Below, in pieces: positions 1-11,335 of a stretch of 11,335 nt of DNA (positions are counted from its first letter, which is position 1; every line of letters begins with the position of its first letter). This stretch comes from a virus. Lineage: Duplodnaviria > Heunggongvirae > Uroviricota > Caudoviricetes. Where the stretch lies: positions 1-11,335 of IMG/VR virus record IMGVR_UViG_3300015174_000004, one strand, 5' to 3'. Both the position numbers and the translations under genes were made by a program. A model generated the notes under the pieces. It was not told where the DNA came from and did no database searches. It saw nothing but the letters and a program-made list of their open reading frames with translations.

Positions 1-1077
1 GATGAATGGAACCAGCAGGAGGCCGCCCGCATTGCGACAGAAGCATACTCATCCTCAATGATCCAGCGCACCAACCAGATTAAAGAAAATCTTGGTTATC
101 TTGAGACTGCATGTAAAGCAGTCGCAAACTCCGCAAAATGGGCATGGGATTCCATGCTGGATATTGGCAGTGAGGCCTCCCTTGATCAAAAAATCTCAGA
201 TGTTCTACGTCAAATTGATGAAATAGAAAAAAATACCCGACCCGGAGTTTTCGGGTTAGGTGGCATTGGAGATGGCGGAGCTCAAAATAAAAAGCTGGCA
301 CGATTAAAGCAGCAATTGGGCGTACTTCAAGCAGAAAAAATTGCTCAGGACGTACTAAATTCATCAATAAACGATTACAACAAGCGACAACAGGAAGGAA
401 TTGAACTCAGACAGAGAGCAGATGCTTTTTCAAAACAATATCAGACCCGGGAGCAGCAGAGAGCTAGTGAACTTGCAAAACTGGAAAAGCTAAAGAATCA
501 GTATTCAAAGGAAGAATATAATAATCTTATCGCTCAAATAAATGAGCGTTATAAAGATCCAAAGCAACCAAAGGCGAAAGGTTATTCGGATGATGCTGCC
601 CAACGAGTGATTGATCATCTGAATCAACAGAATGCGTTACTAAGTTCACAAGCTGAATTGACCGTTAAATTAAGTTCCTCTGAACAGGAACTGGTTAAGT
701 GGCGTCAGCAGATTGCCGACCTGGAGTCACGACCGTCATCGAAATTAACCCAGGATCAGAAATCGCTTCTCTTACACCGGGAAGAAATAACCGCGTTGAT
801 GGAGAAAAATGTTGCGATTGAAAAAAATAACAGGCTAATCAAGGAATCCGCCGAAATAGCTGCATGGCGTGATTCATTGCAGGCTTCAATTGATAATCGT
901 CAGCAGGGGTATGATATTCAGATTGCTGGTTATGGGGTTGGCGATAAAAATCAGCAACGCCAGCAGGAATTACTGCGGATTGAACGTGAATATAACAATC
1001 AGCGTCTGCAACTTGAACGTGACTATGCAGATAAATCCCGTGGGATGTCAAATCATGTTTTTCAGGAGAAAATGTAG
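1..1077 (+). CDS. Phage tail tape measure protein, 5'-partial; reading frame is closed by an in-frame TAG at 1075-1077
   Basis: Frame 1 is open from base 1 (the gene starts upstream of the window). The translation is rich in Q/E/K/R with coiled-coil character, typical of tape measure proteins, and it sits immediately upstream of the M-L-K-I-J tail-tip genes. The region is AT-rich compared with L-J. Confidence 0.7.
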   Translation, partial: DEWNQQEAARIATEAYSSSMIQRTNQIKENLGYLETACKAVANSAKWAWDSMLDIGSEASLDQKISDVLRQIDEIEKNTRPGVFGLGGIGDGGAQNKKLARLKQQLGVLQAEKIAQDVLNSSINDYNKRQQEGIELRQRADAFSKQYQTREQQRASELAKLEKLKNQYSKEEYNNLIAQINERYKDPKQPKAKGYSDDAAQRVIDHLNQQNALLSSQAELTVKLSSSEQELVKWRQQIADLESRPSSKLTQDQKSLLLHREEITALMEKNVAIEKNNRLIKESAEIAAWRDSLQASIDNRQQGYDIQIAGYGVGDKNQQRQQELLRIEREYNNQRLQLERDYADKSRGMSNHVFQEKM

Positions 1078-1242
1078 GCTCTGAATGATGCTCTGGAACG
1101 AGAAAAAGAAATTGTCAGACAGAAAAACGAGCAGCTCGATATTCAGGCAGGAGACTGGGTTAGTGGTGCCTCCCAGGGATTCAATAACTGGCTGGATGAC
1201 ACTAAGGATATCAGTGAGCAGATAAAATCAACCACGACTCAG

Positions 1243-1812
1243 ATGTTTGATGGAATGACCGATGCGCTGGGTGATTTTGTCACGACAGGCAAGGCAAATT
1301 TTCGTTCTTTCGCTACTTCCGTGATTTCGGATCTTAGTCGAATAGCATTAAAGGCTTCAATTACTGGGATTTTCGACAGCATTAGTAACAGTTCTTCGGG
1401 GGGGATTTTAGGAACTATCGGGAGTGCTATTAGTAAATTTATTCCGAATGCAAAGGGCGGTGTTTATGAGTCTCCGTCATTGAACACGTATTCGAACGGT
1501 ATTTATGATTCCCCGCAATTTTTTGCTTTTGCAAAAGGGGCTGGTGTTTTTGGTGAGGCTGGTCCGGAAGCCATTATGCCATTAACACGAACTTCCGATG
1601 GTTCTCTTGGTGTCAGAGCTATTAATTGTAAAAGTGGTAATGGAGGCGGAGATATTACCTATGCCCCTGTATACCAAATCACTATTCAAAATGACGGCCA
1701 GAATGGAGAGATTGGCCCTCAGGCAATAAAAGCACTTATGGGGATGGTTGATCAGCGGGTGCAGGGCAATCTGTTAAATATGCGACGTGATGGGGGAATG
1801 TTAAGTGGCTAA
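1243..1812 (+). CDS. Tape measure protein C-terminal segment, same frame as 1-1077; the in-frame continuation actually begins at 1078 directly after the TAG
   Basis: Frame 1 has no stop from 1078 to the TAA at 1810-1812. The translation is Gly/Ser-rich and hydrophobic, as expected for a tape measure C-terminus. There is no Shine-Dalgarno sequence before the ATG at 1243, so independent initiation is unlikely. Together with 1-1077 this looks like one gene interrupted by one amber codon. Confidence 0.6.
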   Translation: MFDGMTDALGDFVTTGKANFRSFATSVISDLSRIALKASITGIFDSISNSSSGGILGTIGSAISKFIPNAKGGVYESPSLNTYSNGIYDSPQFFAFAKGAGVFGEAGPEAIMPLTRTSDGSLGVRAINCKSGNGGGDITYAPVYQITIQNDGQNGEIGPQAIKALMGMVDQRVQGNLLNMRRDGGMLSG

Positions 1813-2143
1813 TACGGAAGAATTTCACTGGTTACCAGAGGATGGAATGAAAACAGAAAATAAACCATCGATAAAAACTGTAAGATTTGGCGATGGTTAT
1901 GAGCAACGAAGTCCAAATGGACTTAATCATTCTCTGCGCGTTTTCACCTGTGATTTCAAAGTTGAGGCGAATGAACGTGATTCATTTGAAAAATTTTTAG
2001 CCCGGCATGAAGGCTATAAATCTTTTTTTTGGCGCCCGCCTGGTATTAACAGAAAAATCAGAGTGGTGTGTCGAACGTGGTCAGCGACAGAACATATCAC
2101 CTATACCGATTTTTCGTGTCAGTTTGACGAAGTGGTGATCTGA
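1805..2143 (+). CDS. M: Minor tail / tail-tip assembly protein, lambda gpM-like
   Basis: A 112-aa ORF with a GTG start at 1805, preceded by GGGGGAA, and overlapping the tape measure stop. It contains a VRFGDGY motif and has the size and position of lambda gpM. An alternative start is the ATG at 1847, which has a GAGGA upstream. Its stop TGA (2141-2143) overlaps the L start as TGATG. Confidence 0.75.
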   Translation: MANTEEFHWLPEDGMKTENKPSIKTVRFGDGYEQRSPNGLNHSLRVFTCDFKVEANERDSFEKFLARHEGYKSFFWRPPGINRKIRVVCRTWSATEHITYTDFSCQFDEVVI

Positions 2144-2841
2144 TGCAGGACATACAACAGGAAACGCTGAATGAATGCATTCGTGCGGAGCAGTCGGCCA
2201 GCGTGGTGCTCTGGGAAATCGACCTGACCGAGGTAGGCGGGGATCGCTACTTTTTCTGCAATGAGCAGAACGAGAAAGGAGAGTCTGTCACCTGGCAGAG
2301 TCGGCAGTATCAGGCCTATCCCATTCAGGGGAGTGGATTTGAGATGAACGGCAAAGGTGCCAGTGCAAGGCCAACGCTGAAAGTCTCTAATCTGCACGGC
2401 ATGGTCACCGGGATGGCGGAAGACCTGCAGAGTCTGGTCGGCGGAACGGTGGTCAGGCGTAAGGTTTACGCCCGTTTTCTGGATGCGGTGAACTTCGTCA
2501 ACGGAAACAGTGACGCCGATCCGGAGCAGGAGGTGATCAGCCGCTGGCGTATTGAGCAGTGCAGCGAACTGAGCGCGGTCAGTGCCTCCTTTGTACTGTC
2601 CACGCCGACGGAAACGGACGGTGCCGTTTTTCCGGGGCGCATCATGCTGGCTAATACCTGCACCTGGACCTATCGCGGTGATGAGTGCGGTTATCACGGT
2701 CCGGCGGTCGCGGATGAATATGACCAGCCGACATCCGAAATCACGAAGGATAAATGCAGCAAATGCCTGAGTGGCTGTAAGTTCCGCAATAATGTCGGCA
2801 ACTTTGGCGGCTTCCTTTCCATTAACAAACTTTCGCAGTAA
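2143..2841 (+). CDS. L: Minor tail protein L, lambda gpL-like
   Basis: A 232-aa ORF whose translation (MQDIQQETLNECIRAEQSASVVLWEIDLTEVGG... CSKCLSGCKFRNNVGNFGGFLSINKLSQ) matches lambda gpL as I recall it almost residue for residue. It includes the C-terminal Cys cluster. GC content rises abruptly at its start. Confidence 0.9.
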   Translation: MQDIQQETLNECIRAEQSASVVLWEIDLTEVGGDRYFFCNEQNEKGESVTWQSRQYQAYPIQGSGFEMNGKGASARPTLKVSNLHGMVTGMAEDLQSLVGGTVVRRKVYARFLDAVNFVNGNSDADPEQEVISRWRIEQCSELSAVSASFVLSTPTETDGAVFPGRIMLANTCTWTYRGDECGYHGPAVADEYDQPTSEITKDKCSKCLSGCKFRNNVGNFGGFLSINKLSQ

Positions 2842-2845
2842 TCCC

Positions 2846-3589
2846 ATGACAGAGACAGAATCAGCGATTCTGGCGCACGCCCGGCGATGTGCGCCAGCGG
2901 AGTCGTGCGGCTTCGTGGTGAGAACGTCGGAAGGGGAAAGATATTTTCCCTGCGTGAATATCTCCGGTGAGCCGGAGGATTATTTCCGGATGGCTCCGGA
3001 GGACTGGCTGCAGGCAGAAATGCAGGGTGAGATTGTGGCGCTGGTCCACAGCCACCCCGGTGGTCTGCCCTGGCTGAGTGAGGCTGACCGGCGGCTGCAG
3101 GTGCAGAGTGATTTGCCGTGGTTGCTGGTCTGCCGGGGGGCGATTCATAAGTTCCGCTGTGTGCCGCATCTCACCGGGCGGCGCTTTGAGCACGGGGTGA
3201 CGGACTGTTACACGCTGTTCCGGGATGCTTATCATCTGGCGGGGATTGAGATGCCGAATTTTCATCGCGGGGATGACTGGTGGCGTCACGGCCAGAATCT
3301 CTATCTGGATAATCTGGAGGCCACAGGGCTGTATCAGGTGCCGTTGTCATCAGCACAACCGGGCGATGTGCTGCTGTGCTGTTTTGGTTCATCGGTGCCG
3401 AATCATGCCGCCATTTACTGTGGTGACGGCGAGCTGCTGCACCATATTCCTGAACAACTGAGCAAACGAGAGAGGTATACCGACAAATGGCAGCGACGCA
3501 CACACTCCCTCTGGCGTCACCGGGCATGGCGCGAATCTGCCTTTACGGGGATTTACAACGATTTGGCCGCCGCATCGACCTGCGTGTGA
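2846..3589 (+). CDS. K: Tail-tip assembly protein K, lambda gpK-like, with an MPN/JAMM-type domain and an NlpC/P60-like domain
   Basis: A 247-aa ORF from the ATG at 2846, which lies 5 nt after the L stop. It has a JAMM-like motif (E...HSHPGGLPWLSEAD) and a papain-like Cys/His signature (TDCYTLF ... NHAAIY). A shorter alternative start is the ATG at 2990 (MAPEDW...). The six-frame ORF from 2771 overlaps L and is not the likely start. Confidence 0.8.
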   Translation: MTETESAILAHARRCAPAESCGFVVRTSEGERYFPCVNISGEPEDYFRMAPEDWLQAEMQGEIVALVHSHPGGLPWLSEADRRLQVQSDLPWLLVCRGAIHKFRCVPHLTGRRFEHGVTDCYTLFRDAYHLAGIEMPNFHRGDDWWRHGQNLYLDNLEATGLYQVPLSSAQPGDVLLCCFGSSVPNHAAIYCGDGELLHHIPEQLSKRERYTDKWQRRTHSLWRHRAWRESAFTGIYNDLAAASTCV

Positions 3590-4134
3590 AAACGGGGGCC
3601 GAAGCAGTCCGGGCGCTGACCACACAGCTTCCGGCGTTTCGTCAGAAACTGAGCGACGGCTGGTATCAGGTACGCATTGCCGGGCGTGATGCAGGTGAAA
3701 CTGAATTATCAGCCCGTCTTAATGAACCGCTGGCAAATGGTGCCGTGATCCACATTGTGCCGCGTCTGGCGGGAGCCAAAAGTGGCGGTCTTTTTCAGGC
3801 TGTGCTGGGGGCGGCGCTGATTGCGGTGGCATGGTGGAACCCTGCAGGTTGGTTGGGGGCTGCCGCAATTACAGGAATGTATGGTGCGGGGGCCAGTATG
3901 GTGCTCGGTGGTGTGGCGCAGATGCTGGCACCGAAAGCCAGAACTCCCCGTACACAGACAACGGATAACGGCAAACAGAACACCTATTTCTCCTCACTGG
4001 ATAACATGGTTGCCCAGGGCAATGTTCTGCCGGTTCTGTACGGTGAAATGCGCGTGGGGTCACGGGTGATTTCGCAGGAGATCAGCACGGCAGATGAAGG
4101 AGATGGTGGTCAGGTTGTGGTGATTGGTCGTTGA
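3487..4134 (+). CDS. I: Tail-tip assembly protein I, lambda gpI-like
   Basis: A 215-aa ORF with GAGAGAGG upstream of its ATG. It has a hydrophobic Gly/Ala-rich central segment and a C-terminus (YGEMRVGSRVISQEISTADEGDGGQVVVIGR) that resembles lambda gpI. It overlaps the 3' end of K by 103 nt in a different frame. Confidence 0.8.
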   Translation: MAATHTLPLASPGMARICLYGDLQRFGRRIDLRVKTGAEAVRALTTQLPAFRQKLSDGWYQVRIAGRDAGETELSARLNEPLANGAVIHIVPRLAGAKSGGLFQAVLGAALIAVAWWNPAGWLGAAAITGMYGAGASMVLGGVAQMLAPKARTPRTQTTDNGKQNTYFSSLDNMVAQGNVLPVLYGEMRVGSRVISQEISTADEGDGGQVVVIGR

Positions 4135-4151
4135 TGCAGAATGTTTTGTGT

Positions 4152-4173
4152 GAAACCGCCTCAGGGCGGTTTT
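4152..4173 (+). terminator. Perfect 8-9 bp hairpin (GAAACCGCC-TCAG-GGCGGTTTT) in the I-J intergenic spacer, followed by an interrupted T-tract; possible attenuator or RNA stability element
   Basis: The inverted repeat is read directly from the sequence between the I stop (4132-4134) and the J start (4195). The downstream T-run is interrupted (TTTTGTCGTTTCTGG), so termination would be partial at best. Confidence 0.3.
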
Positions 4174-4194
4174 GTCGTTTCTGGAGCGTGAGGA

Positions 4195-7100
4195 ATGGGT
4201 AAAGGCAGCAGTAAGGGGCATACCCCGCGCGAAGCGAAGGACAACCTGAAATCATCCCAGATGCTGAGCGTGATAGACGCCATCAGTGAAGGGCCGATTG
4301 AAGGTCCGGTGGACGGATTAAAAAGTGTGCTGCTGAATAGTACGCCGGTGCTGGACAGTGAGGGGAATACCAATATCTCCGGTGTCACGGTGGTGTTCCG
4401 GGCCGGTGAGCAGGAGCAGACACCGCCGGAGGGATTTGAATCCTCCGGCTCCGAGACGGTGCTGGGTACGGAAGTGAAGTACGACACGCCGATTACCCGG
4501 ACCATCACGTCTGCAAACATCGACCGTCTGCGCTTTACCTTCGGTGTGCAGGCACTGGTGGAAACCACCTCAAAGGGGGACCGGAATCCGTCGGAAGTCC
4601 GCCTGCTGGTTCAGATACAGCGTAACGGTGGCTGGGTGACGGAAAAAGACATCACCATTAAAGGCAAAACCACCTCGCAGTATCTGGCCTCGGTGGTGGT
4701 GGATAACCTGCCGCCGCGCCCGTTTAATATCCGGATGCGCAGGATGACGCCGGACAGCACCACAGACCAGCTGCAGAACAAAACGCTCTGGTCGTCATAC
4801 ACCGAAATCATCGATGTGAAACAGTGCTACCCGAACACGGCACTGGTCGGCGTACAGGTGGACTCGGAGCAGTTCGGCAGCCAGCAGGTGAGTCGTAATT
4901 ATCATCTTCGCGGGCGCATTCTGCAGGTGCCGTCGAACTATAACCCGCAGACGCGACAATACAGCGGTATCTGGGACGGAACGTTTAAGCCAGCATACAG
5001 CAACAACATGGCCTGGTGTCTGTGGGATATGCTGACCCATCCGCGCTACGGCATGGGAAAACGTCTTGGTGCGTCGGATGTGGATAAATGGGCGCTGTAT
5101 GTCATCGGCCAGTACTGCGACCAGTCGGTGCCGGACGGCTTTGGCGGCACGGAGCCGCGCATCACCTGTAATGCCTGGCTGACCACGCAGCGTAAGGCGT
5201 GGGATGTGCTCAGTGATTTCTGCTCGGCGATGCGCTGTATGCCGGTATGGAACGGGCAGACGCTGACGTTCGTGCAGGACCGACCATCAGATAAGGTGTG
5301 GACCTATAACCGCAGTAATGTGGTGATGCCGGATGATGGCGCGCCGTTCCGCTACAGCTTCAGCGCCCTGAAGGACCGCCATAATGCCGTTGAGGTGAAC
5401 TGGATTGACCCGAACAACGGCTGGGAGACGGCGACAGAGCTTGTTGAAGATACGCAGGCCATTGCCCGTTACGGTCGTAATGTCACGAAGATGGATGCCT
5501 TTGGCTGTACCAGCCGGGGGCAGGCACACCGCGCCGGGCTGTGGCTGATTAAAACGGAACTGCTGGAGACGCAGACCGTGGATTTCAGCGTGGGTGCTGA
5601 AGGGCTTCGCCATGTACCGGGCGATGTCATTGAAATCTGCGATGATGACTATGCCGGTATCAGCACCGGTGGTCGCGTGCTGGCGGTGAACAGCCAGACC
5701 CGGACGCTGACGCTCGACCGTGAAATCACGCTGCCATCCTCCGGTACCACGCTGATAAGCCTGGTTGACGGAAGTGGCAATCCGGTCAGCGTGGAGGTTC
5801 AGTCCGTCACCGACGGCGTGAAGGTAAAAGTGAGCCGTGTTCCTGACGGTGTTGCTGAATACAGCGTATGGGGGCTGAAGCTGCCGACGCTGCGCCAGCG
5901 ACTGTTCCGCTGCGTGAGTATCCGTGAGAACGACGACGGCACGTATGCCATCACCGCCGTGCAGCATGTGCCGGAAAAAGAAGCCATCGTGGATAACGGG
6001 GCGCACTTTGACGGCGACCAGAGCGGCACGGTGAATGGTGTCACGCCGCCAGCGGTGCAGCACCTGACCGCCGAAGTCACCGCAGACAGCGGGGAATATC
6101 AGGTGCTGGCGCGCTGGGACACGCCGAAGGTGGTGAAGGGCGTGAGCTTCCTGCTCCGTCTGACCGTAACAGCGGACGACGGCAGTGAGCGGCTGGTCAG
6201 CACGGCCCGGACGACGGAAACCACATACCGCTTCACGCAACTGGCGCTGGGGCGTTACACGCTGACAGTCCGGGCGGTAAATGCGTGGGGGCAGCAGGGC
6301 GATCCGGCATCGGTATCGTTCCGGATTGCGGCACCGGCAGCGCCTGTCACTATTGAACTGATACCAGGGTATTTTCAGATAACAGCGGTCCCGAAACTGG
6401 CTGTATATGACCCGACGGTGCAGTTTGAGTTCTGGTTCTCGGAAAAGCGGATTACCGATATCAGGCAGGTTGAAACCAGCGCGCGTTATCTTGGTACGGC
6501 GCTGTACTGGATAGCCGCCAGTAGCAATATTAAGCCGGGTTATGATTATTACTTTTATATCCGCAGCGTGAACACTGTTGGTAAATCGGCATTTGTGGAG
6601 GCCGTCGGTCGGGCGAGCGATGATGCGGAAGGTTATCTGAATTTTTATAAAGGGTTGATCAATAAAACGCATCTCGGCAAGGAACTGCTGGAAAACTTTG
6701 AGCTGACGGAAGATAACGCCAGCAAACTGGAGGAGTTTTCGAAAGAGTGGAAGGACGCTAACGATAAATGGAATGCCATGTGGGGCGTCAAAATTGAGCA
6801 GACCAAAGACGGCAAACATTATGTCGCGGGTATTGGCCTCAGCATGGAGGATACGGAGGAAGGCAAACTGAGCCAGTTCCTGGTTGCCGCTAACCGTATC
6901 GCGTTTATTGACCCGGCAAACGGGAATGAAACGCCGATGTTTGTGGCGCAGGGCAACCAGATATTCATGAACGACGTGTTCCTGAAACGCCTGACGGCCC
7001 CCACCATTACCAGCGGCGGTAATCCTCCGGCATTTTCCCTGACACCGGACGGGCGGCTGACGGCGAGAAATGCTGATATCAGCGGTAACGTGAATGCGAA

Positions 7101-7608
7101 CTCCGGGACGCTCAATAATGTCACGGTAAATGAAAACTGTACGATTAAGGGCATGCTGGAGGCGAACCAGGTCAGAGGTGACTTCGTTAAAACTGTATCC
7201 AAATCATTCCCGAAAAAGGCTGGTACGTGGGGTAACACGGAAACACCAAACGGGACGGTTACAGTCACCATTTACGATGATCATAACTTTGACCGCCAAA
7301 TCATTATTCCGCCCATTATTTTTAACGGTGTGGCGTATGACGATCCGGGGAGCGGTAATAACCCGGGAGGTACGCGATACACGGGTTATGGTTTTGAAGT
7401 TCGCAAAAATGGCGTATTAATCGCATCCAGAGAAACTAAAGGAGCCATTCCCGGTAGTTACAGTGCGGTTATTGATATGCCGAGTGGTGGTGGTAACGTC
7501 ACTCTGGAGTTTAAGATTTTCCAGAAAGGCAATCAGGGCGCAGGTAACATCACAGACTGTACGGTGATTGTGACCAAAAAAGCTGCTTCCGGTATCAGTA
7601 TCCGTTGA
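4195..7608 (+). CDS. J: Host specificity protein J (central tail fiber / tail tip), lambda gpJ-like
   Basis: A 1137-aa ORF with GGAG 8 nt upstream of its ATG. Its size, position after I, and N-terminal and central sequence are typical of lambda J. The last ~1 kb is visibly more AT-rich, consistent with an exchanged receptor-binding region. Confidence 0.9.
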
Positions 7609-7629
7609 AATATTTATAACCCCAATACG

Positions 7630-7657
7630 GGCGCCAGAAATGGCGCCTTTTTTATTT
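7630..7657 (+). terminator. Rho-independent terminator downstream of J
   Basis: GGCGCC-AGAAAT-GGCGCC forms a perfect GC-rich stem and is followed by TTTTTTATTT. It begins 22 nt after the J stop. Confidence 0.65.
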
Positions 7658-7668
7658 GTGGAGTGAGT

Positions 7669-10041
7669 ATGGCAGTACAGATTTCAGGTGTGCTGAAAGA
7701 TGGTGCGGGAAAACCAATACAGAACTGCACTATTCAACTGAAGGCAAAGCGTAACAGCACCACGGTACTGGTGAACACGGTGGCCTCTGAAAATCCGGAT
7801 GAAGCCGGGCGTTACAGCATGGATGTTGAGTATGGCCAGTACAGCGTTATCCTGCTGGTTGAAGGTTTTCCGCCTTCACATGCCGGAACCATTACCGTCT
7901 ATGAAGGTTCCAGACCAGGTACGCTGAATGATTTTCTCGGTGCCATGACGGAAGATGATGTCATGCCGGAGGCATTGCGTCGTTTTGAGGCAATGGTGGA
8001 AGAAGCGGCACGCAACGCTGAAGCCGCCTTTCAGAGCGCAGCGGCGGCAAAGAAATCCGAAGCTGCTGCGGCATCATCGAAGAACGCGGCGAAAAGCTCA
8101 GAAACGAATGCAGCTAACAGCGCACAGGCGGCAGCGGCCTCACAGACTGCATCGGCAAACTCCGCGACAGCAGCCCAAAAATCAGAAGCCAACGCGAAAA
8201 ATAGCGAAACAGCCGCAAAGACGAGCGAAACCAACGCGAAGTCCAGCCAGACGGCAGCGAAAACCAGCGAAACGAATGCCAAAGTCAGTGAAACTGCAGC
8301 GAAAAACAGCCAGGCTGCAGCAGCTGAAAGCGAGAGCGCAGCAGCCGGTTCTGCGACTTCAGCAGCTGGATTAGCAACTGCTGCGGCTAACAGCCAGAAA
8401 GCTGCGAAGGCGAGCGAAACTAACGCAAAGTCCAGCCAGACGGCAGCGAAGACCAGCGAAACGAATGCCAAAGCCAGCGAAACTGCGGCGAAAAGCAGTC
8501 AGGATGCAGCAGCCGAAAGCGAGAGTGCTGCAGCTGGTTCTGCAAGCGCGGCGGCTGCTTCTGCCACTGCATCAGCTAACAGTCAAAAAGCAGCAAAAAC
8601 CAGTGAAACCAACGCAAAGGTGAGCGAAACAGCGGCTGCGAACTCAGCGAAAGCATCGGCAGCAAGCCAGACGGCAGCTAAAGCAAGCGAAGATGCAGCC
8701 AGAGAGTACGCAAGCCAGGCTGCGGAGCCGTATAAATATGTCTTACAGCCGCTGCCTGATGTGTGGATACCATTTAACGATTCGCTGGATATGATTACGG
8801 GCTTTTCGCCGTCATATAAAAAGATTGTTATTGGTGATGATGAAATAACGATGCCTGGCGACAAGGTTGTTAAGTTTAAACGCGCATCGAAAGCAACCTA
8901 TATTAATAAATCTGGTGTGCTGACAGAGGCTGCCATTGACGAGCCACGGTTTGAACGTGATGGCCTGCTTATTGAGGGGCAAAGAACGAACTACATGCTC
9001 AATTCGGAAAGCCCTGCCAGTTGGGGGCGATCGTCAAATATGGATGTGCCCGAAACCGGGACGGATAGTTTTGGTTTTACCTATGGAAAGTTTGTCTGTA
9101 ACGATTCTCTGATTGGGCAAACCTCAGCCATTAATATGGCATCAATTGCTGCAACAAAGTCAGTTGATGTCTCAGGCGATAATAAACACGTGACAACCTC
9201 ATGTCGTTTTAAAACAGAACTGCAGGTAAGGTTGCGTATCCGGTTTGATAAATATGACGGTAGCGCAACAACTTTTCTTGGTGATGCGTATATTGATACA
9301 CAAACGCTTGAAATTAATATGACAGGCGGTGCTGCCTCAAGGATTACAGCGAGAGTCAGAAAGGACGAAGCTACCGGATGGATTTTTGCAGAGGCAACAA
9401 TTCAGGCAATTGATGGGGAGTTAAAAATAGGTTCTCAGATACAGTATTCTCCTAAGCAGGGCGGGGCAACCGTATCTGGTGACTATATTTATCTGGCCAC
9501 CCCACAAGTAGAAAATGGGCCTTGTGTATCATCTTTTATTATATCAGGAACGACGGCGGCGACCCGCGCAAGCGATATAGTTACAGTTCCAATTAAGAAT
9601 AATCTTTATAATCTTCCTTTTACGGTTCTTTGTGAGGTACATAAGAACTGGTATAAAACGCCAAATGCAGCGCCGCGTGTTTTTGACACCGGCGGTCATC
9701 AAACCGGAGCGGCTATTATTCTTGGCTTCGGTTCTTCAGCAGATTACGACGGATTTCCTTATTGCGATATTGGAGGAGCTAACAGACGGGTAAACGAAAA
9801 CGCATCGCTTGAAAAAATGGTTATGGGGATGCGTGTAAAGTCAGATCAGTCTACGTGCTCAGCAAGTAACGGGCGTATATCCAGCGAAACAAAAACCACA
9901 TGGTCCTGTATTCAGAACACCGCAATTATCCGTATTGGAGGCCAGACTACAGCCGGGTTACGTCATTTATTTGGTCATGTCAGGAATTTCAGAATATGGC
10001 ACAAGGCATTGACTGATGCTCAGGTGGGGGAGTCAATCTAA
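7669..10041 (+). CDS. stf: Side tail fiber protein: Stf-like N-terminus, Ala/Ser/Thr-rich repeat shaft, and a C-terminal domain with a LamG/concanavalin-like signature
   Basis: The ATG at 7669 is preceded by GGAG (7660-7663). The N-terminus (MAVQISGVLKDGAGKPIQNCTIQLKAKRNSTTV...GRYSMDVEYGQYSVIL) resembles lambda Stf. The middle is built from 7-aa repeats. The C-terminus ends in ...LFGHVRNFRIWHKALTDAQVGESI, which looks like the terminal strand of a LamG-like jelly-roll; this is a motif-level inference. The six-frame track starts at GTG 7663, but the ATG at 7669 is more likely. Confidence 0.85.
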   Translation: MAVQISGVLKDGAGKPIQNCTIQLKAKRNSTTVLVNTVASENPDEAGRYSMDVEYGQYSVILLVEGFPPSHAGTITVYEGSRPGTLNDFLGAMTEDDVMPEALRRFEAMVEEAARNAEAAFQSAAAAKKSEAAAASSKNAAKSSETNAANSAQAAAASQTASANSATAAQKSEANAKNSETAAKTSETNAKSSQTAAKTSETNAKVSETAAKNSQAAAAESESAAAGSATSAAGLATAAANSQKAAKASETNAKSSQTAAKTSETNAKASETAAKSSQDAAAESESAAAGSASAAAASATASANSQKAAKTSETNAKVSETAAANSAKASAASQTAAKASEDAAREYASQAAEPYKYVLQPLPDVWIPFNDSLDMITGFSPSYKKIVIGDDEITMPGDKVVKFKRASKATYINKSGVLTEAAIDEPRFERDGLLIEGQRTNYMLNSESPASWGRSSNMDVPETGTDSFGFTYGKFVCNDSLIGQTSAINMASIAATKSVDVSGDNKHVTTSCRFKTELQVRLRIRFDKYDGSATTFLGDAYIDTQTLEINMTGGAASRITARVRKDEATGWIFAEATIQAIDGELKIGSQIQYSPKQGGATVSGDYIYLATPQVENGPCVSSFIISGTTAATRASDIVTVPIKNNLYNLPFTVLCEVHKNWYKTPNAAPRVFDTGGHQTGAAIILGFGSSADYDGFPYCDIGGANRRVNENASLEKMVMGMRVKSDQSTCSASNGRISSETKTTWSCIQNTAIIRIGGQTTAGLRHLFGHVRNFRIWHKALTDAQVGESI
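8221..8598 (+). repeat. Two tandem 189-bp (63-aa) imperfect direct repeats inside stf, each built from nine 21-bp (7-aa) sub-repeats; degenerate copies extend from about 8040 to 8700
   Basis: Unit 1 (8221-8409) encodes TSETNAKSSQTAAKTSETNAKVSETAAKNSQAAAAESESAAAGSATSAAGLATAAANSQKAAK. Unit 2 (8410-8598) encodes ASETNAKSSQTAAKTSETNAKASETAAKSSQDAAAESESAAAGSASAAAASATASANSQKAAK. A third, partial unit starts at 8599. Confidence 0.8.
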
Positions 10042-10322
10042 TGAAAGATTTAACACTCAAATTTGAAGACAGGGCCGACTTTTCGGCCTTTATGGAGAGT
10101 ATTGGCTATTATGATGACGAGTCGATGCAGGATGATATTCTTATCGACGTGATAGGTAACGCGTACAAAGAAACCGGAGAACTGACTGAAGATGGCGAAC
10201 CGGTATGTGTTAAGGAAGACGGATATTTTGTAAACGTGCGCATCATTAATGATTCGCAAATATCGTCATTATTCGATGAGTACGTGGTTGCTGTTGAGCA
10301 TCAACTTCGTGGCTGGATGTGA
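10041..10322 (+). CDS. Hypothetical small, highly acidic protein (93 aa) of unknown function, translationally coupled to both neighbours
   Basis: Its ATG overlaps the stf stop as TAATG (10039-10043). Its TGA stop (10320-10322) lies inside the Shine-Dalgarno sequence (GAGGAAG) of the next gene. It has roughly 22 Asp/Glu against about 8 basic residues. I recognise no homologue. Confidence 0.55.
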   Translation: MKDLTLKFEDRADFSAFMESIGYYDDESMQDDILIDVIGNAYKETGELTEDGEPVCVKEDGYFVNVRIINDSQISSLFDEYVVAVEHQLRGWM

Positions 10323-10331
10323 GGAAGAAAA

Positions 10332-11268
10332 ATGGCTACATCGACAGTAATTCCTGATGACATCAAAACGCTAAAATCCGACGTTAGCAAATTAAAAAAC
10401 GATCAAGGAAGCTACGCAACAAAATTATATGTAGACAGCAAAGATGAAATCGTTGGTGACTGGTCTGCTTCATGGTATCAGCAGGTATTGCCAACTAGCG
10501 GAGCTATATTTGGGAGAAAACTCCGCTCAACTCACAGGACGGCAGGTGTTGAGGATGCGTATTGCGAACTATACCTCAAAAAATGGATAGACAGTCCAGG
10601 TAACGCAATGGCGCGCCTTAACCTGAACGATAACGGGACAAACATTTGCTGGGACTTTACCAACCTTTATGGCGGTACGATGATTTTTCCCGGTGACAGC
10701 GGATACCTCAAAATGGGTAACTGCCTTATGTCATACAGCAAGCGTGGAAGTAACGCGCTTATTAAATTTGATTACACCGACACATTACAGATCAAATATG
10801 CCAATCATGGGTCAACCATTACATTAAACACACAGGTAACCGCTTATGCTGGTGTTACTGCTCAATTGTGGGGCAACTCCAGCCGTCCTGTTGTTTATGA
10901 AGTCGGTGTTGATGGTGGCGCTTATATGTTCTATGCGCAGAAAAATACCGATAACACCTATATGTTAAGCGTTAATGGTGCATGTCATGCCACAGCATTT
11001 AACCAGCATTCAGACCGGGATCTGAAAGACAACATTCAGGTGATCGATAAAGCAACCGACCACATCCGTAAAATGAACGGCTATACATACACGCTTAAAG
11101 AAAACGGTATGCCCTATGCTGGTGTCATTGCACAGGAAGCTCTGGAAGCAATCCCAGAAGTTGTAGGTTCCGCAATGAAATATCAGGACGGTGCAAGCGG
11201 ATCGGAAGGTGAAGAAGGTGAACGTTATTACACAGTAGATTATTCTGGTGTTACTGGCTTGCTTGTTC
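10332..11268 (+). CDS. Short tail fiber / receptor-binding-like protein with a C-terminal intramolecular chaperone (peptidase S74-like) domain; 3'-truncated at the end of native sequence
   Basis: The ATG at 10332 follows GAGGAAG. The C-terminal region (HSDRDLKDNIQVIDKATDHIRKMNGYTYTL...YAGVIAQEALEAIPEVV) matches the hallmark of endosialidase/T5 pb1-type self-cleaving chaperone domains. It has a Ser-x4-Lys pair (S227 at 11010-11012, K232 at 11025-11027). The apparent end of the ORF (IGRASCRERV, stop at 11301-11303) is encoded by adapter sequence, so the true C-terminus is missing. Confidence 0.7.
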
Positions 11269-11335
11269 AGATCGGAAGAGCGTCGTGTAGGGAAAGAGTG
11301 TAGATCTCGGTGGTCGCCGTATCATTAAAAAAAAA
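11269..11335 (+). other. Non-biological sequence: Illumina TruSeq adapter read-through (11269-11326) followed by a 9-nt poly-A (11327-11335)
   Basis: The 58 nt AGATCGGAAGAGCGTCGTGTAGGGAAAGAGTGTAGATCTCGGTGGTCGCCGTATCATT is the standard Illumina adapter-trimming sequence, which is the reverse complement of the universal P5 adapter. It is followed by nine A's at the contig terminus. Confidence 0.92.

What the first reader, a model, noticed from the sequence alone, without database searches (positions are those of the whole stretch)
10041..10322. Highly acidic 93-aa ORF between two fiber genes: candidate adaptor or chaperone, or a DNA-mimic anti-defence moron
The protein is about 24% Asp/Glu with few basic residues and has no signal peptide. 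Small, very acidic phage proteins are often DNA mimics with anti-restriction or anti-defence function (Ocr and ArdA are examples). Its translational coupling on both sides argues instead for a stoichiometric role in fiber assembly. From sequence alone I cannot decide between these.
Basis: inference. Interest (0 to 1): 0.6.

Follow-up and report, generated by a model that had tools for sequence, protein, structure and literature searches.

The report
Small acidic partner of lectin-tipped tail fibres
This 93-residue, very acidic phage protein is real and conserved, and it always sits directly after tail fibres that end in one kind of lectin-like domain, so it is most likely a tail-fibre assembly or joint factor and not an anti-defence DNA mimic.

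Summary
Window 10041-10322 (+) encodes a 93-aa protein with 23.7% Asp+Glu, pI 4.05 and net charge -15. Its ATG shares one base with the stop codon of the 792-aa Stf-like fibre. The next fibre gene starts 9 nt after its stop.

It is a full-length member of PHROG 1361 ("unknown function"). The gene is under purifying selection (dN/dS 0.23). It occurs in about 18% of complete E. coli genomes and in 198 phage records: lambda-like, T5-like, T1-like, Dhillonvirus, Queuovirinae and rV5-like.

In every locus examined it directly follows a fibre whose last ~160 residues form a basic LamG/ConA-like lectin domain. That domain's tail gives 203 phage records with almost the same organism breakdown. The second fibre downstream is present only in a subset.

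Among 71 E. coli prophage loci, the small protein stays 88-100% identical. Both flanking receptor-binding regions are shuffled and hypervariable.

The AF2 model (pLDDT 86) is a small alpha/beta fold with no significant match to DNA mimics or to known fibre chaperones. No separate promoter or terminator was found.

Best reading: a fibre accessory protein made one-for-one with the lectin-tipped fibre, acting as a chaperone or cap (about 0.5) or as a structural joint for the distal fibre (about 0.3). DNA mimic: about 0.03. Function remains untested.

The parts
7663..10041 (+). Proximal side tail fibre, Stf-like, 792 aa from GTG 7663. The probable true start is ATG 7669, because the Pfam match and the Tritos CDS both begin at 'MAVQISG'. 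Layout: N-terminal lambda-Stf-type attachment domain, an Ala/Ser/Glu-rich repeat shaft, a GTA-head-spike-fibre-like domain (aa 436-636), and a C-terminal lectin-like domain.
   Evidence: PF08400 E 1.6e-66 and phrog_1419 over the full length. NF048003 GTA_spike_fiber E 2.4e-13. PDB 6TB9 Rcc01080 E 4e-7. The Tritos homologue is annotated 'lambda phage stf protein homolog'.
9577..10038 (+). C-terminal LamG/ConA-like lectin domain of the fibre. It is basic (last 160 aa pI 9.2, net +5) and ends in the motif RHLFGHVRNFRIWHKALTD. This is the conserved genomic partner of the small protein.
10041..10322 (+). The finding itself: a 93-aa acidic protein, member of PHROG 1361. Predicted fold: beta1 (2-8), alpha1 (11-20), alpha2 (27-32), a long beta-hairpin (33-48, 54-68), alpha3 (75-81). 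The C-terminal tail is modelled with low confidence but carries a conserved PxRxW[A/M] motif.
10323..10331 (+). 9-nt spacer. A GAGGA Shine-Dalgarno-like sequence spans the stop codon of the small gene. The spacing is 9 nt in all 78 related E. coli prophage loci that retain downstream DNA.
10332..11270 (+). Distal short fibre, 346 aa in intact relatives and cut here after codon 313 by the adapter. It carries a Peptidase_S74 intramolecular chaperone domain at aa 227-278 (nt 11010-11165).
   Evidence: PF13884 E 1.6e-13 and phrog_4563. Homology to Tritos ends at window 11270.
10332..10409 (+). Conserved N-terminal peptide of the distal fibre (MATSTVIPDDIKTLKSDVSKLKNDQG), presumed to be the docking segment. 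The motif T-x-I-P-x-D-I-x-x-L-K recurs at the start of the gene after the small gene in lambda-like, T5-like, T1-like, Dhillonvirus and Queuovirinae phages.
   Evidence: (first 20 aa 94% mean identity while the body averages 57.5% and can be as low as 15%).
7629..7657 (+). Terminator-like hairpin (GGGCGCC-AGAA-ATGGCGCC followed by a T-run) between J and the fibre operon. No comparable site lies between the fibre, the small gene and the distal fibre.

Best explanation
The 93-aa protein is a dedicated accessory subunit of a mobile tail-fibre module.

Shown here:
- It is always encoded directly after, and stop/start-coupled to, a lateral fibre whose last ~160 residues form a basic LamG/ConA-like lectin domain ending in the motif RHLFGH-x-RN-x-R-x-W.
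- The coupling places it in the late fibre operon.
- It stays constant while the receptor-binding parts on both sides are exchanged.

Inferred mechanism:
- The acidic protein (net -8 to -17 in intact family members) binds the conserved, basic C-terminal core of the lectin domain as that domain leaves the ribosome. The coupling would supply about one copy per fibre chain, made beside it.
- It helps the distal end of the fibre fold and assemble, or transiently caps it. This is the role that the separately encoded Tfa-type chaperones play for other fibres.
- In the siphovirus versions, including this window, the fibre end plus small protein may also provide the constant socket for the conserved N-terminal peptide of the second, distal fibre.
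For: (1) Synteny across unrelated phages. The small gene immediately follows the lectin-tipped fibre in:
- lambda-like phages (window; Tritos; PhiR49_1, PhiR47_1 and IdasGreatGrand);
- T5-like phages (FGS017; IrisVonRoten; SelmaRatti; AKFV33);
- T1-like tuinn;
- Dhillonvirus KarlBarth;
- Queuovirinae VogelGryff and phiG7;
- rV5-like myovirus JeffSchatz;
- six metagenomic or genomic contexts.
The ATG overlaps the fibre's stop by 1 or 4 nt, or lies 1-10 nt after it.

(2) The upstream partners share only the distal region and the C-terminal motif. Their N-terminal attachment domains differ.

(3) Co-occurrence. tblastn finds the small protein in 198 phage records and the last 80 aa of the fibre in 203. 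The organism breakdown is identical in every named category except Escherichia (158 versus 163).

(4) The small gene persists where no coupled second fibre follows:
- the prophage ends in L005/L006;
- the next called gene in L004 is an unrelated S24-peptidase-like gene about 330 nt downstream;
- a hairpin plus T-run typical of an intrinsic terminator follows it in L007/L008/L095 and in L010 (read by eye from the sequence; the scan tool was not run on these loci).
Its universal partner is therefore the upstream fibre.

(5) Charge complementarity. The last 160 aa of the fibre have pI 8.3-9.9 in 14 of 17 lineages, against pI 4.05-4.83 for the small protein.

(6) Purifying selection (dN/dS 0.23), and no promoter or terminator between the three genes beyond chance.

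(7) The position directly downstream of the fibre gene is the canonical place for separately encoded fibre chaperones: lambda tfa, Mu U, P2 G, T4 gp38 (established knowledge). A fibre plus cognate chaperone moving as one module between distant phage families has been documented (PMC10579305).
Against: - No physical interaction was shown.
- The protein does not co-vary with the lectin domain. Type-A alleles (at least 88% identical) pair with nine lectin clusters that are only 19-61% identical to each other. Conversely, a nearly identical lectin domain (84-99%) pairs with a small protein only about 40% identical in FGS017 and VogelGryff. A chaperone that reads the variable tip would be expected to co-vary, so any contact must be with the conserved core.
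- There is no sequence or fold similarity to any known fibre chaperone.
- No virion proteomics resolves whether it is transient or stays bound. The AKFV33 study analysed only four gel bands.
Confidence: 0.5

Rival explanations
1. Structural joint or adaptor. The small protein stays in the virion at the end of the proximal fibre and forms the constant socket that holds the conserved N-terminal peptide (TxIPxDIxxLK) of the distal fibre. Different distal fibres could then be plugged onto different proximal fibres, much as the T4 knee protein gp35 links two half-fibres.
For: - Among 71 E. coli prophage loci the conserved island is exactly the last 25 aa of the fibre (84% mean identity), the small protein (95.6%) and the first 20 aa of the distal fibre (94%).
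- The flanking bodies average 52% and 58% identity and occur in 15 different combinations.
- The 9-nt spacing to the distal fibre is the same in all 78 loci with downstream DNA.
- The N-terminal peptide is conserved in five siphovirus lineages, even where the small proteins are only about 30% identical.
- The full N-terminal peptide was seen only in phages carrying the three-gene set. In other fibres the adjoining segment is internal to a single polypeptide.
- The BASEL authors predict that the distal fibre of IrisVonRoten attaches to the proximal fibre Gp22. They do not discuss the small Gp23 (PMC11990801).
Against: - The small gene, with its family-conserved residues (G39, V64, N65, R90; W92 everywhere except the rV5-like branch), is kept where no coupled distal fibre with that peptide follows: rV5-like phages, L004, L005/L006 and L010. 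The family's core function therefore cannot depend on the distal fibre.
- The conserved island could also reflect a recombination hot spot. Adjacency confounds any co-variation argument.
- There is no evidence that it is in virions.
Confidence: 0.3
2. DNA-mimic anti-restriction or anti-defence 'moron'. A small acidic protein imitates the charge pattern of DNA and blocks host nucleases or other defences, as Ocr, ArdA, UGI and AcrIIA4 do.
For: Only composition: pI 4.05, 23.7% D+E, net -15, small size, cytoplasmic. Some known DNA mimics are small alpha/beta proteins (established knowledge).
Against: - No Pfam, NCBIfam or PADLOC hit. PADLOC holds defence-system proteins, so its silence bears only weakly on an anti-defence role.
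- The viral structure library returns only uncharacterised ~64-120-aa phage proteins among its significant matches.
- The gene sits inside the late fibre operon with a stop/start overlap and has no promoter or terminator of its own. Known anti-restriction genes are expressed early.
- It co-occurs almost one-to-one with a structural domain in phages that face very different defence pressures and use different DNA modifications (T5-like, deazaguanine-modified Queuovirinae, temperate lambdoids).
- Selection is purifying and the protein is 88-100% identical across E. coli prophages. Counter-defence genes typically show diversification and patchy presence.
Confidence: 0.03
3. Some other role tied to the fibre operon but not to assembly. 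Examples: a translational coupling element whose product matters little, or a cytoplasmic regulator or timer of fibre production.
Against: - dN/dS of 0.23 and conservation of specific residues across 30-40% identical family members show that the protein sequence itself is selected.
- The strict link to one fibre domain type is hard to explain by a general regulatory role.
Confidence: 0.1

Closest known systems
Separately encoded tail fibre assembly proteins (lambda Tfa, Mu U/Tfa-Mu, P2 G, T4 gp38; Pfam Caudo_TAP PF02413)
   Same: - Encoded immediately downstream of the fibre gene it serves, in the late operon.
- Travels with the fibre's distal part as a mobile module.
- Some of them (Tfa-Mu, T2-type gp38) stay bound at the tip.
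   Different: - No sequence match (Pfam, E up to 0.1) and a different predicted fold.
- Half the size: 93 aa against about 175-260 aa.
- It does not co-vary with the variable tip, whereas the C-terminal halves of Tfa proteins do (the Tfa behaviour is stated from general knowledge).
- The client domain is a LamG/ConA-like lectin domain, not a beta-helical or needle tip.
Alteromonas phage V22 gp27 / A5 gp9 'transient chaperone caps' (PMC10579305)
   Same: - A fibre and its cognate downstream chaperone are shared as one host-recognition module among morphologically unrelated phages.
- A proposed function beyond folding, namely capping the tip.
   Different: - Those chaperones are 195-240 aa and resemble intramolecular chaperone domains.
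- Their interaction with the fibre was shown biochemically.
- Here nothing has been shown biochemically, and the fold is a small alpha/beta domain.
T4 long-tail-fibre knee (gp35 hinge with gp34 and gp36) and branched T5-like fibres (DT57C LtfA/LtfB, PMC4728585; IrisVonRoten Gp22/Gp24, PMC11990801)
   Same: - A fibre built from a proximal and a distal trimer joined non-covalently.
- The window has the same gene order as IrisVonRoten Gp22-Gp23-Gp24. The distal part of its fibre is homologous to those of the T5-like phages, as shown directly for FGS017; for IrisVonRoten the C-terminal motif and the last 80 aa (70% identical) match.
   Different: - gp35 is a 372-aa monomeric hinge (size from general knowledge; it does not appear among the sequence or structural matches).
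- DT57C LtfA ends in an S74 domain, and the paper describes only two LTF genes, ltfA and ltfB.
- The role of the small protein in the IrisVonRoten-type fibre has not been addressed in print, as far as the searched library shows.
T4 gp57A (general fibre chaperone)
   Same: A small protein needed for fibre trimer assembly that is not part of the virion (general knowledge).
   Different: gp57A is an all-helical coiled-coil oligomer encoded away from the fibre genes (general knowledge). The protein here is alpha/beta and is coupled to one fibre type.
DNA-mimic anti-restriction proteins (Ocr, ArdA) and small acidic inhibitors (UGI, AcrIIA4)
   Same: Small size and strong negative charge.
   Different: No sequence or structural similarity, a late structural-operon context, and an obligate link to a fibre domain.

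Membership tests
PHROG 1361 (uncharacterised phage protein family) | Full-length match to the family profile | tested here: met
   E 1.3e-45, residues 1-93 on profile positions 1-92 of 92. FGS017's homologue is annotated phrog=1361 in its record.
PHROG 1361 (uncharacterised phage protein family) | Context proposed here as a family trait: the gene directly follows a fibre ending in the LamG-like RHLFGHxRNxRxW domain | tested here: met
   True of the window and of every locus inspected. Record counts are 198 versus 203.
Tail fibre assembly protein, Tfa / Caudo_TAP (PF02413) | Sequence match to the Caudo_TAP / Tfa profile | tested here: not met
   No Pfam family at E up to 0.1 and no NCBIfam family at E up to 0.01.
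Tail fibre assembly protein, Tfa / Caudo_TAP (PF02413) | Gene immediately downstream of the fibre gene it serves | tested here: met
   One-base overlap of stop and start. Coupled or immediately adjacent (overlap of 1 or 4 nt, or a gap of 1-10 nt) in all relatives examined.
Tail fibre assembly protein, Tfa / Caudo_TAP (PF02413) | Required for folding or trimerisation of the fibre tip; binds it | not testable with these tools
   Needs co-expression, pull-down or a deletion mutant.
Intramolecular chaperone (Peptidase_S74) | S74 autoproteolytic domain | tested here: not met
   Absent from the 93-aa protein. Present instead in the downstream fibre, aa 227-278.
DNA-mimic anti-restriction proteins (Ocr PF08684, ArdA PF07275) | Sequence match to the family profile | tested here: not met
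   No Pfam hit at E up to 0.1. phmmer against all PDB sequences gives only chance-level hits, E at least 0.15.
DNA-mimic anti-restriction proteins (Ocr PF08684, ArdA PF07275) | Fold that presents carboxylates in a B-DNA-like array; structural similarity to a known mimic | tested here: not met
DNA-mimic anti-restriction proteins (Ocr PF08684, ArdA PF07275) | High negative charge, low pI | tested here: met
   pI 4.05, net -15.
DNA-mimic anti-restriction proteins (Ocr PF08684, ArdA PF07275) | Early expression, or expression independent of the late structural operon | tested here: not met
   Stop/start overlap with the late fibre gene. No promoter-like site upstream beyond chance: 4 found in the region against 4.9 expected, none adjacent to the gene.
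Moron (independently transcribed accessory gene in a prophage late region) | Own promoter and terminator; patchy presence among otherwise similar phages | tested here: not met
   No flanking promoter or terminator. Present in the same arrangement in all 80 related E. coli prophage loci retrieved with the gene itself (they were selected for carrying it), 78 of which retain downstream DNA. Tracks the lectin-type fibre domain nearly one-to-one across phage records.

The most novel reading that the evidence does not exclude
The PHROG 1361 protein is a previously unrecognised kind of fibre component: a small acidic 'joint cap'. In this reading it sits on the lectin-like end of a proximal fibre and provides a universal socket for the conserved TxIPxDIxxLK peptide of interchangeable distal fibres. 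This would be the physical basis of plug-and-play exchange of receptor-binding modules among lambda-like, T5-like, T1-like, Dhillonvirus and Queuovirinae phages.
Probability: 0.3. Interest if true: 0.55.

Novelty: new variant of a known kind. Interest (0 to 1): 0.4.

Why it matters
Lateral fibres decide which O-antigen types a coliphage or prophage can reach, and they are prime targets for engineering host range.

This three-gene module is in about 18% of complete E. coli genomes and in roughly 200 sequenced phages from at least six lineages. Its small middle gene is annotated 'hypothetical', and published structural models of the fibre (IrisVonRoten) do not discuss it.

If it is needed to fold the lectin-tipped fibre or to attach the distal fibre, then fibre swaps or heterologous expression that leave it out would fail. 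The conserved island (fibre tail, small protein, distal N-terminal peptide) would mark the natural cut-and-paste points for module exchange.

For the scan itself, the result is a caution: strong acidity alone is a weak predictor of a DNA mimic.

Tried and rejected
- Named families: no Pfam, NCBIfam or PADLOC match for the 93-aa protein. phmmer against PDB sequences gave chance-level hits only.
- Complex prediction: I built a paired alignment of lectin domain, linker, small protein, linker and distal N-terminus. The chaperone-versus-adaptor question could therefore not be addressed structurally.
- The search for related loci with the family alignment failed because no conserved stretch was long enough. 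The T5-type homologue found nothing in IMG/VR.
- Natural fusions (Rosetta stone): none among the 49 clusters. The one long hit (P0151, 1797 aa) is a repeat-protein artefact.
- Literature: searches on Stf and lateral fibres, DT57C LtfA/LtfB, the BASEL collections, and rV5 and AKFV33 proteomics found no statement about this protein. rV5 did not appear among the 36 phage records that matched the rV5-like small protein, so it seems to carry a different allele of that fibre and its virion proteome was not pursued. The AKFV33 study looked at four gel bands only.
- Co-variation: I asked whether the small protein tracks the lectin domain or the distal fibre. It tracks neither. I rejected this as a way to identify the partner, because adjacency and recombination confound it.
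Full report
**What is there.**

The window is the tail region of a lambda-like E. coli phage or prophage. It carries the end of the tape-measure gene, then M, L, K, I and J (4195-7608), and then a three-gene fibre block.

From position 2191 to 11270 it is 96% identical to Escherichia phage Tritos. The fibre end of the window (9700-11270) is about 98-99% identical to phages 2G7b, Tritos, PhiR63_1 and HannyBb.

The finding's ORF (10041-10322, +) encodes 93 aa with 23.7% Asp+Glu, 7.5% Lys+Arg, net charge -15 and pI 4.05. Its ATG shares one base with the TAA of the 792-aa Stf-like fibre. The next gene starts 9 nt after its TGA, behind a GAGGA.

One correction applies. The downstream gene is cut by an Illumina adapter at 11271-11335. 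The '323-aa' fibre is really the 346-aa fibre seen in Tritos.

**It is a real gene and a family.**

- The protein matches PHROG 1361, annotated 'unknown function', over its whole length (E 1.3e-45).
- It has no Pfam, NCBIfam or PADLOC match.
- A word-indexed search found 217 near-identical to moderately similar proteins, nearly all from Escherichia and named 'hypothetical'.
- An exhaustive HMMER scan of 1.84 billion cluster representatives found only 49 clusters, all short proteins apart from one repeat-protein artefact.
- The gene's DNA is present in 988 of 5,426 complete E. coli genomes.
- Forty unique alleles give dN/dS = 0.23, so the protein sequence is under purifying selection.
- Acidity is conserved throughout the family: pI 4.05-4.83 in the 24 aligned sequences, a few of which are frameshifted or extended database entries.
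- Family-wide conserved positions include F8, D36, I38, G39, V64, N65 and R90, together with a C-terminal PxRxW[A/M] motif.

**Structure.**

AlphaFold2 with an 18-sequence alignment gives a confident model: pLDDT 86.4, pTM 0.72. The fold is a strand, two helices, a long beta-hairpin and a short helix, followed by a low-confidence C-terminal tail that carries the conserved motif.

**Context decides the question.**

The same arrangement recurs in phages that share nothing else: large lateral fibre, small acidic gene coupled to its stop codon, and usually a second fibre. It was seen in:

- T5-like phages: FGS017, IrisVonRoten, SelmaRatti and AKFV33;
- Queuovirinae: VogelGryff and phiG7;
- T1-like tuinn;
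- Dhillonvirus KarlBarth;
- rV5-like myovirus JeffSchatz;
- other lambdoids, with classical phage 21 appearing among the tblastn hits for the fibre tail, where the annotated features under the match are a side tail fibre and a hypothetical protein (its locus was not opened);
- six metagenomic or genomic contexts of 31-45% identical homologues.

The upstream proteins have different N-terminal attachment domains: lambda Stf-type, T5 pb1-type and Tail_spike_N. They share a distal region, and above all the C-terminal motif RHLFGH-x-RN-x-R-x-W.

tblastn finds the small protein in 198 phage records and the fibre's last 80 residues in 203. The organism breakdown is the same in every named category except Escherichia, 158 versus 163. 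This is a near one-to-one association among 50,697 records.

**Which neighbour is the partner?**

In the siphoviruses a second fibre always follows after 9-12 nt. Its first ~20 residues carry a conserved peptide, M-x-T-x-T-x-I-P-x-D-I-x-x-L-K, after which the proteins diverge completely. The full peptide was found only in phages carrying the three-gene set. In other fibres the adjoining segment is internal.

The small gene is also retained where no such coupled fibre follows. Examples:

- rV5-like phages and L010, where a hairpin with a T-run follows it. I read this from the sequence; I did not run the terminator scan on those loci.
- L005/L006, where the prophage ends.
- L004, where the next called gene is an unrelated S24-peptidase-like gene about 330 nt downstream.

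The family's universal partner is therefore the upstream, lectin-tipped fibre.

Charge supports this. The fibre's last 160 residues are basic (pI 8.3-9.9) in 14 of 17 lineages, against pI 4.05-4.83 for the small protein.

**A constant piece between two variable ones.**

In 71 complete E. coli prophage loci from IMG/VR:

- The small protein is 88-100% identical in all pairs (mean 95.6%).
- The 135 residues of the lectin domain before the tail fall into nine clusters that are 19-61% identical to one another.
- The distal-fibre bodies fall into four clusters, with pairwise identity as low as 15%.
- Fifteen upstream/downstream combinations occur.
- The conserved island is the last 25 aa of the fibre (84%), the small protein, and the first 20 aa of the distal fibre (94%).

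Conversely, FGS017 and VogelGryff carry a lectin domain 84-99% identical to the window's but a small protein only about 40% identical. PhiR47_1 has a nearly identical distal fibre with a small protein about 35% identical.

The small protein therefore co-varies with neither variable region. Any contact it makes must be with conserved features.

**Mechanism, committed.**

Shown: the gene is stop/start-coupled to the lectin-tipped fibre gene in the late fibre operon, is linked to that fibre type, is selected as a protein, and is constant while specificity modules are shuffled around it.

Inferred: it binds the conserved basic core or C-terminal strands of the lectin domain and assists folding and assembly, or transiently caps the tip. 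Coupling would supply roughly one copy per fibre chain. This is the role that downstream-encoded Tfa-type chaperones play elsewhere, and the Alteromonas fibre/chaperone 'cap' modules are a documented parallel (PMC10579305). I put this at about 0.5.

The main rival, at about 0.3, is that it stays in the virion as the socket for the distal fibre's conserved N-terminal peptide. The conserved island argues for this. Its persistence without a distal fibre argues against it as the family's core function. The two readings are not exclusive.

The DNA-mimic reading, at about 0.03, rests on charge alone. Everything else contradicts it: no family or fold match, late-operon coupling, no promoter or terminator of its own, an obligate link to a structural domain, and purifying rather than diversifying selection.

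**What is known and what is new.**

The family exists in PHROGs as 'unknown function'. In GenBank its members are labelled 'hypothetical protein' or, by proximity, 'tail fiber protein'.

I found no paper that discusses it. The DT57C work concerns a different two-protein fibre whose LtfA ends in an S74 domain. The BASEL papers model Gp22 and Gp24 of IrisVonRoten but not Gp23. The AKFV33 proteome confirmed the upstream-fibre homologue ORF137 in virions but examined only four gel bands.

Functionally this is best filed as a new variant of a known kind: a fibre accessory or assembly protein with an unrelated fold, an unusual lectin-type client domain, and a non-co-varying, constant character. Interest is moderate. 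It is useful for fibre engineering and annotation and is widespread, but it is not a surprise in kind.

**Limits.**

No interaction, virion presence or phenotype has been shown. The record-count argument relies on matching totals and organism breakdowns, not on a record-by-record intersection.

Noticed in passing
window 11271-11335: The window ends in an Illumina adapter (AGATCGGAAGAGCGTCGTGTAGGGAAAGAGTGTAGATCTCGGTGGTCGCCGTATCATT) followed by poly-A. This creates the false C-terminus ...GRASCRERV on the distal fibre ORF. The same 60-odd bases match unrelated Enterococcus and other phage records, which points to adapter contamination in public records too.
   Followed up: partly
window 1075-1077 (ORFs 58-1077 and 1243-1812): The tape-measure reading frame is interrupted by a single in-frame TAG (...QEKM*ALNDALE...). 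The frame then continues into the 189-aa ORF. This could be a nonsense mutation (defective prophage) or a sequencing error.
   Followed up: partly
window 1-2190 versus 2191-11270: There is a mosaic boundary. Only 2191-11270 is homologous to phage Tritos (96%). The tape-measure/M end is unrelated at the DNA level and has about 41-44% GC, against 55-58% for L, K, I and J.
   Followed up: no
window 8968-9570 (fibre aa 436-636): The middle of the Stf-like fibre carries a domain homologous to the head spike fibre Rcc01080 of the Rhodobacter capsulatus gene transfer agent (NF048003 E 2.4e-13; PDB 6TB9 E 4e-7). This is a link between coliphage side fibres and GTA head spikes.
   Followed up: partly
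window 10332-10409; L002 4624-, L003 4617-, L096 4789-, L097 4792-, L098 3770-, L099 4278-, L100 3778-: Distal fibres in five siphovirus lineages begin with the same peptide (TxIPxDIxxLK), while the rest of each protein is unrelated. In tuinn the unit IPxDITKLKNDVSTLKQDV is duplicated in tandem. It is probably the docking segment for the proximal fibre.
   Followed up: partly
L001 13716-14009 (Tritos TRITO_22); L012 5587-5880; L013 5603-5890; L014 5614-5901: Just beyond the window's end, related phages encode a conserved 95-97-aa hydrophobic protein after the distal fibre (MDITPFLHALCAVAAQ...). It looks like a membrane protein, is unrelated to the acidic one, and is a better candidate for a lysogenic-conversion or exclusion gene.
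   Followed up: no
window 7629-7657: A strong terminator-like hairpin with a T-run lies between J and the fibre operon. The fibre genes would therefore have to be read by antiterminated late transcription or from a separate start.
   Followed up: no
phage records MG065635, MG065652-55, MG065666, MG065676 ('Campylobacter phage'), OR848352 ('Listeria phage'): Records labelled as Campylobacter or Listeria phages carry rV5-like or T5-like coliphage fibre modules at 98-100% protein identity. They are probably mislabelled or contaminated records.
   Followed up: no
L101 (AKFV33 orf137), PMC3326045: The virion band identified as the upstream-fibre homologue ORF137 ran at 95.8 kDa. My estimate for its 784 aa is about 85 kDa. 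The roughly 10 kDa excess is within SDS-PAGE error, but it equals the mass of the small protein.
   Followed up: no
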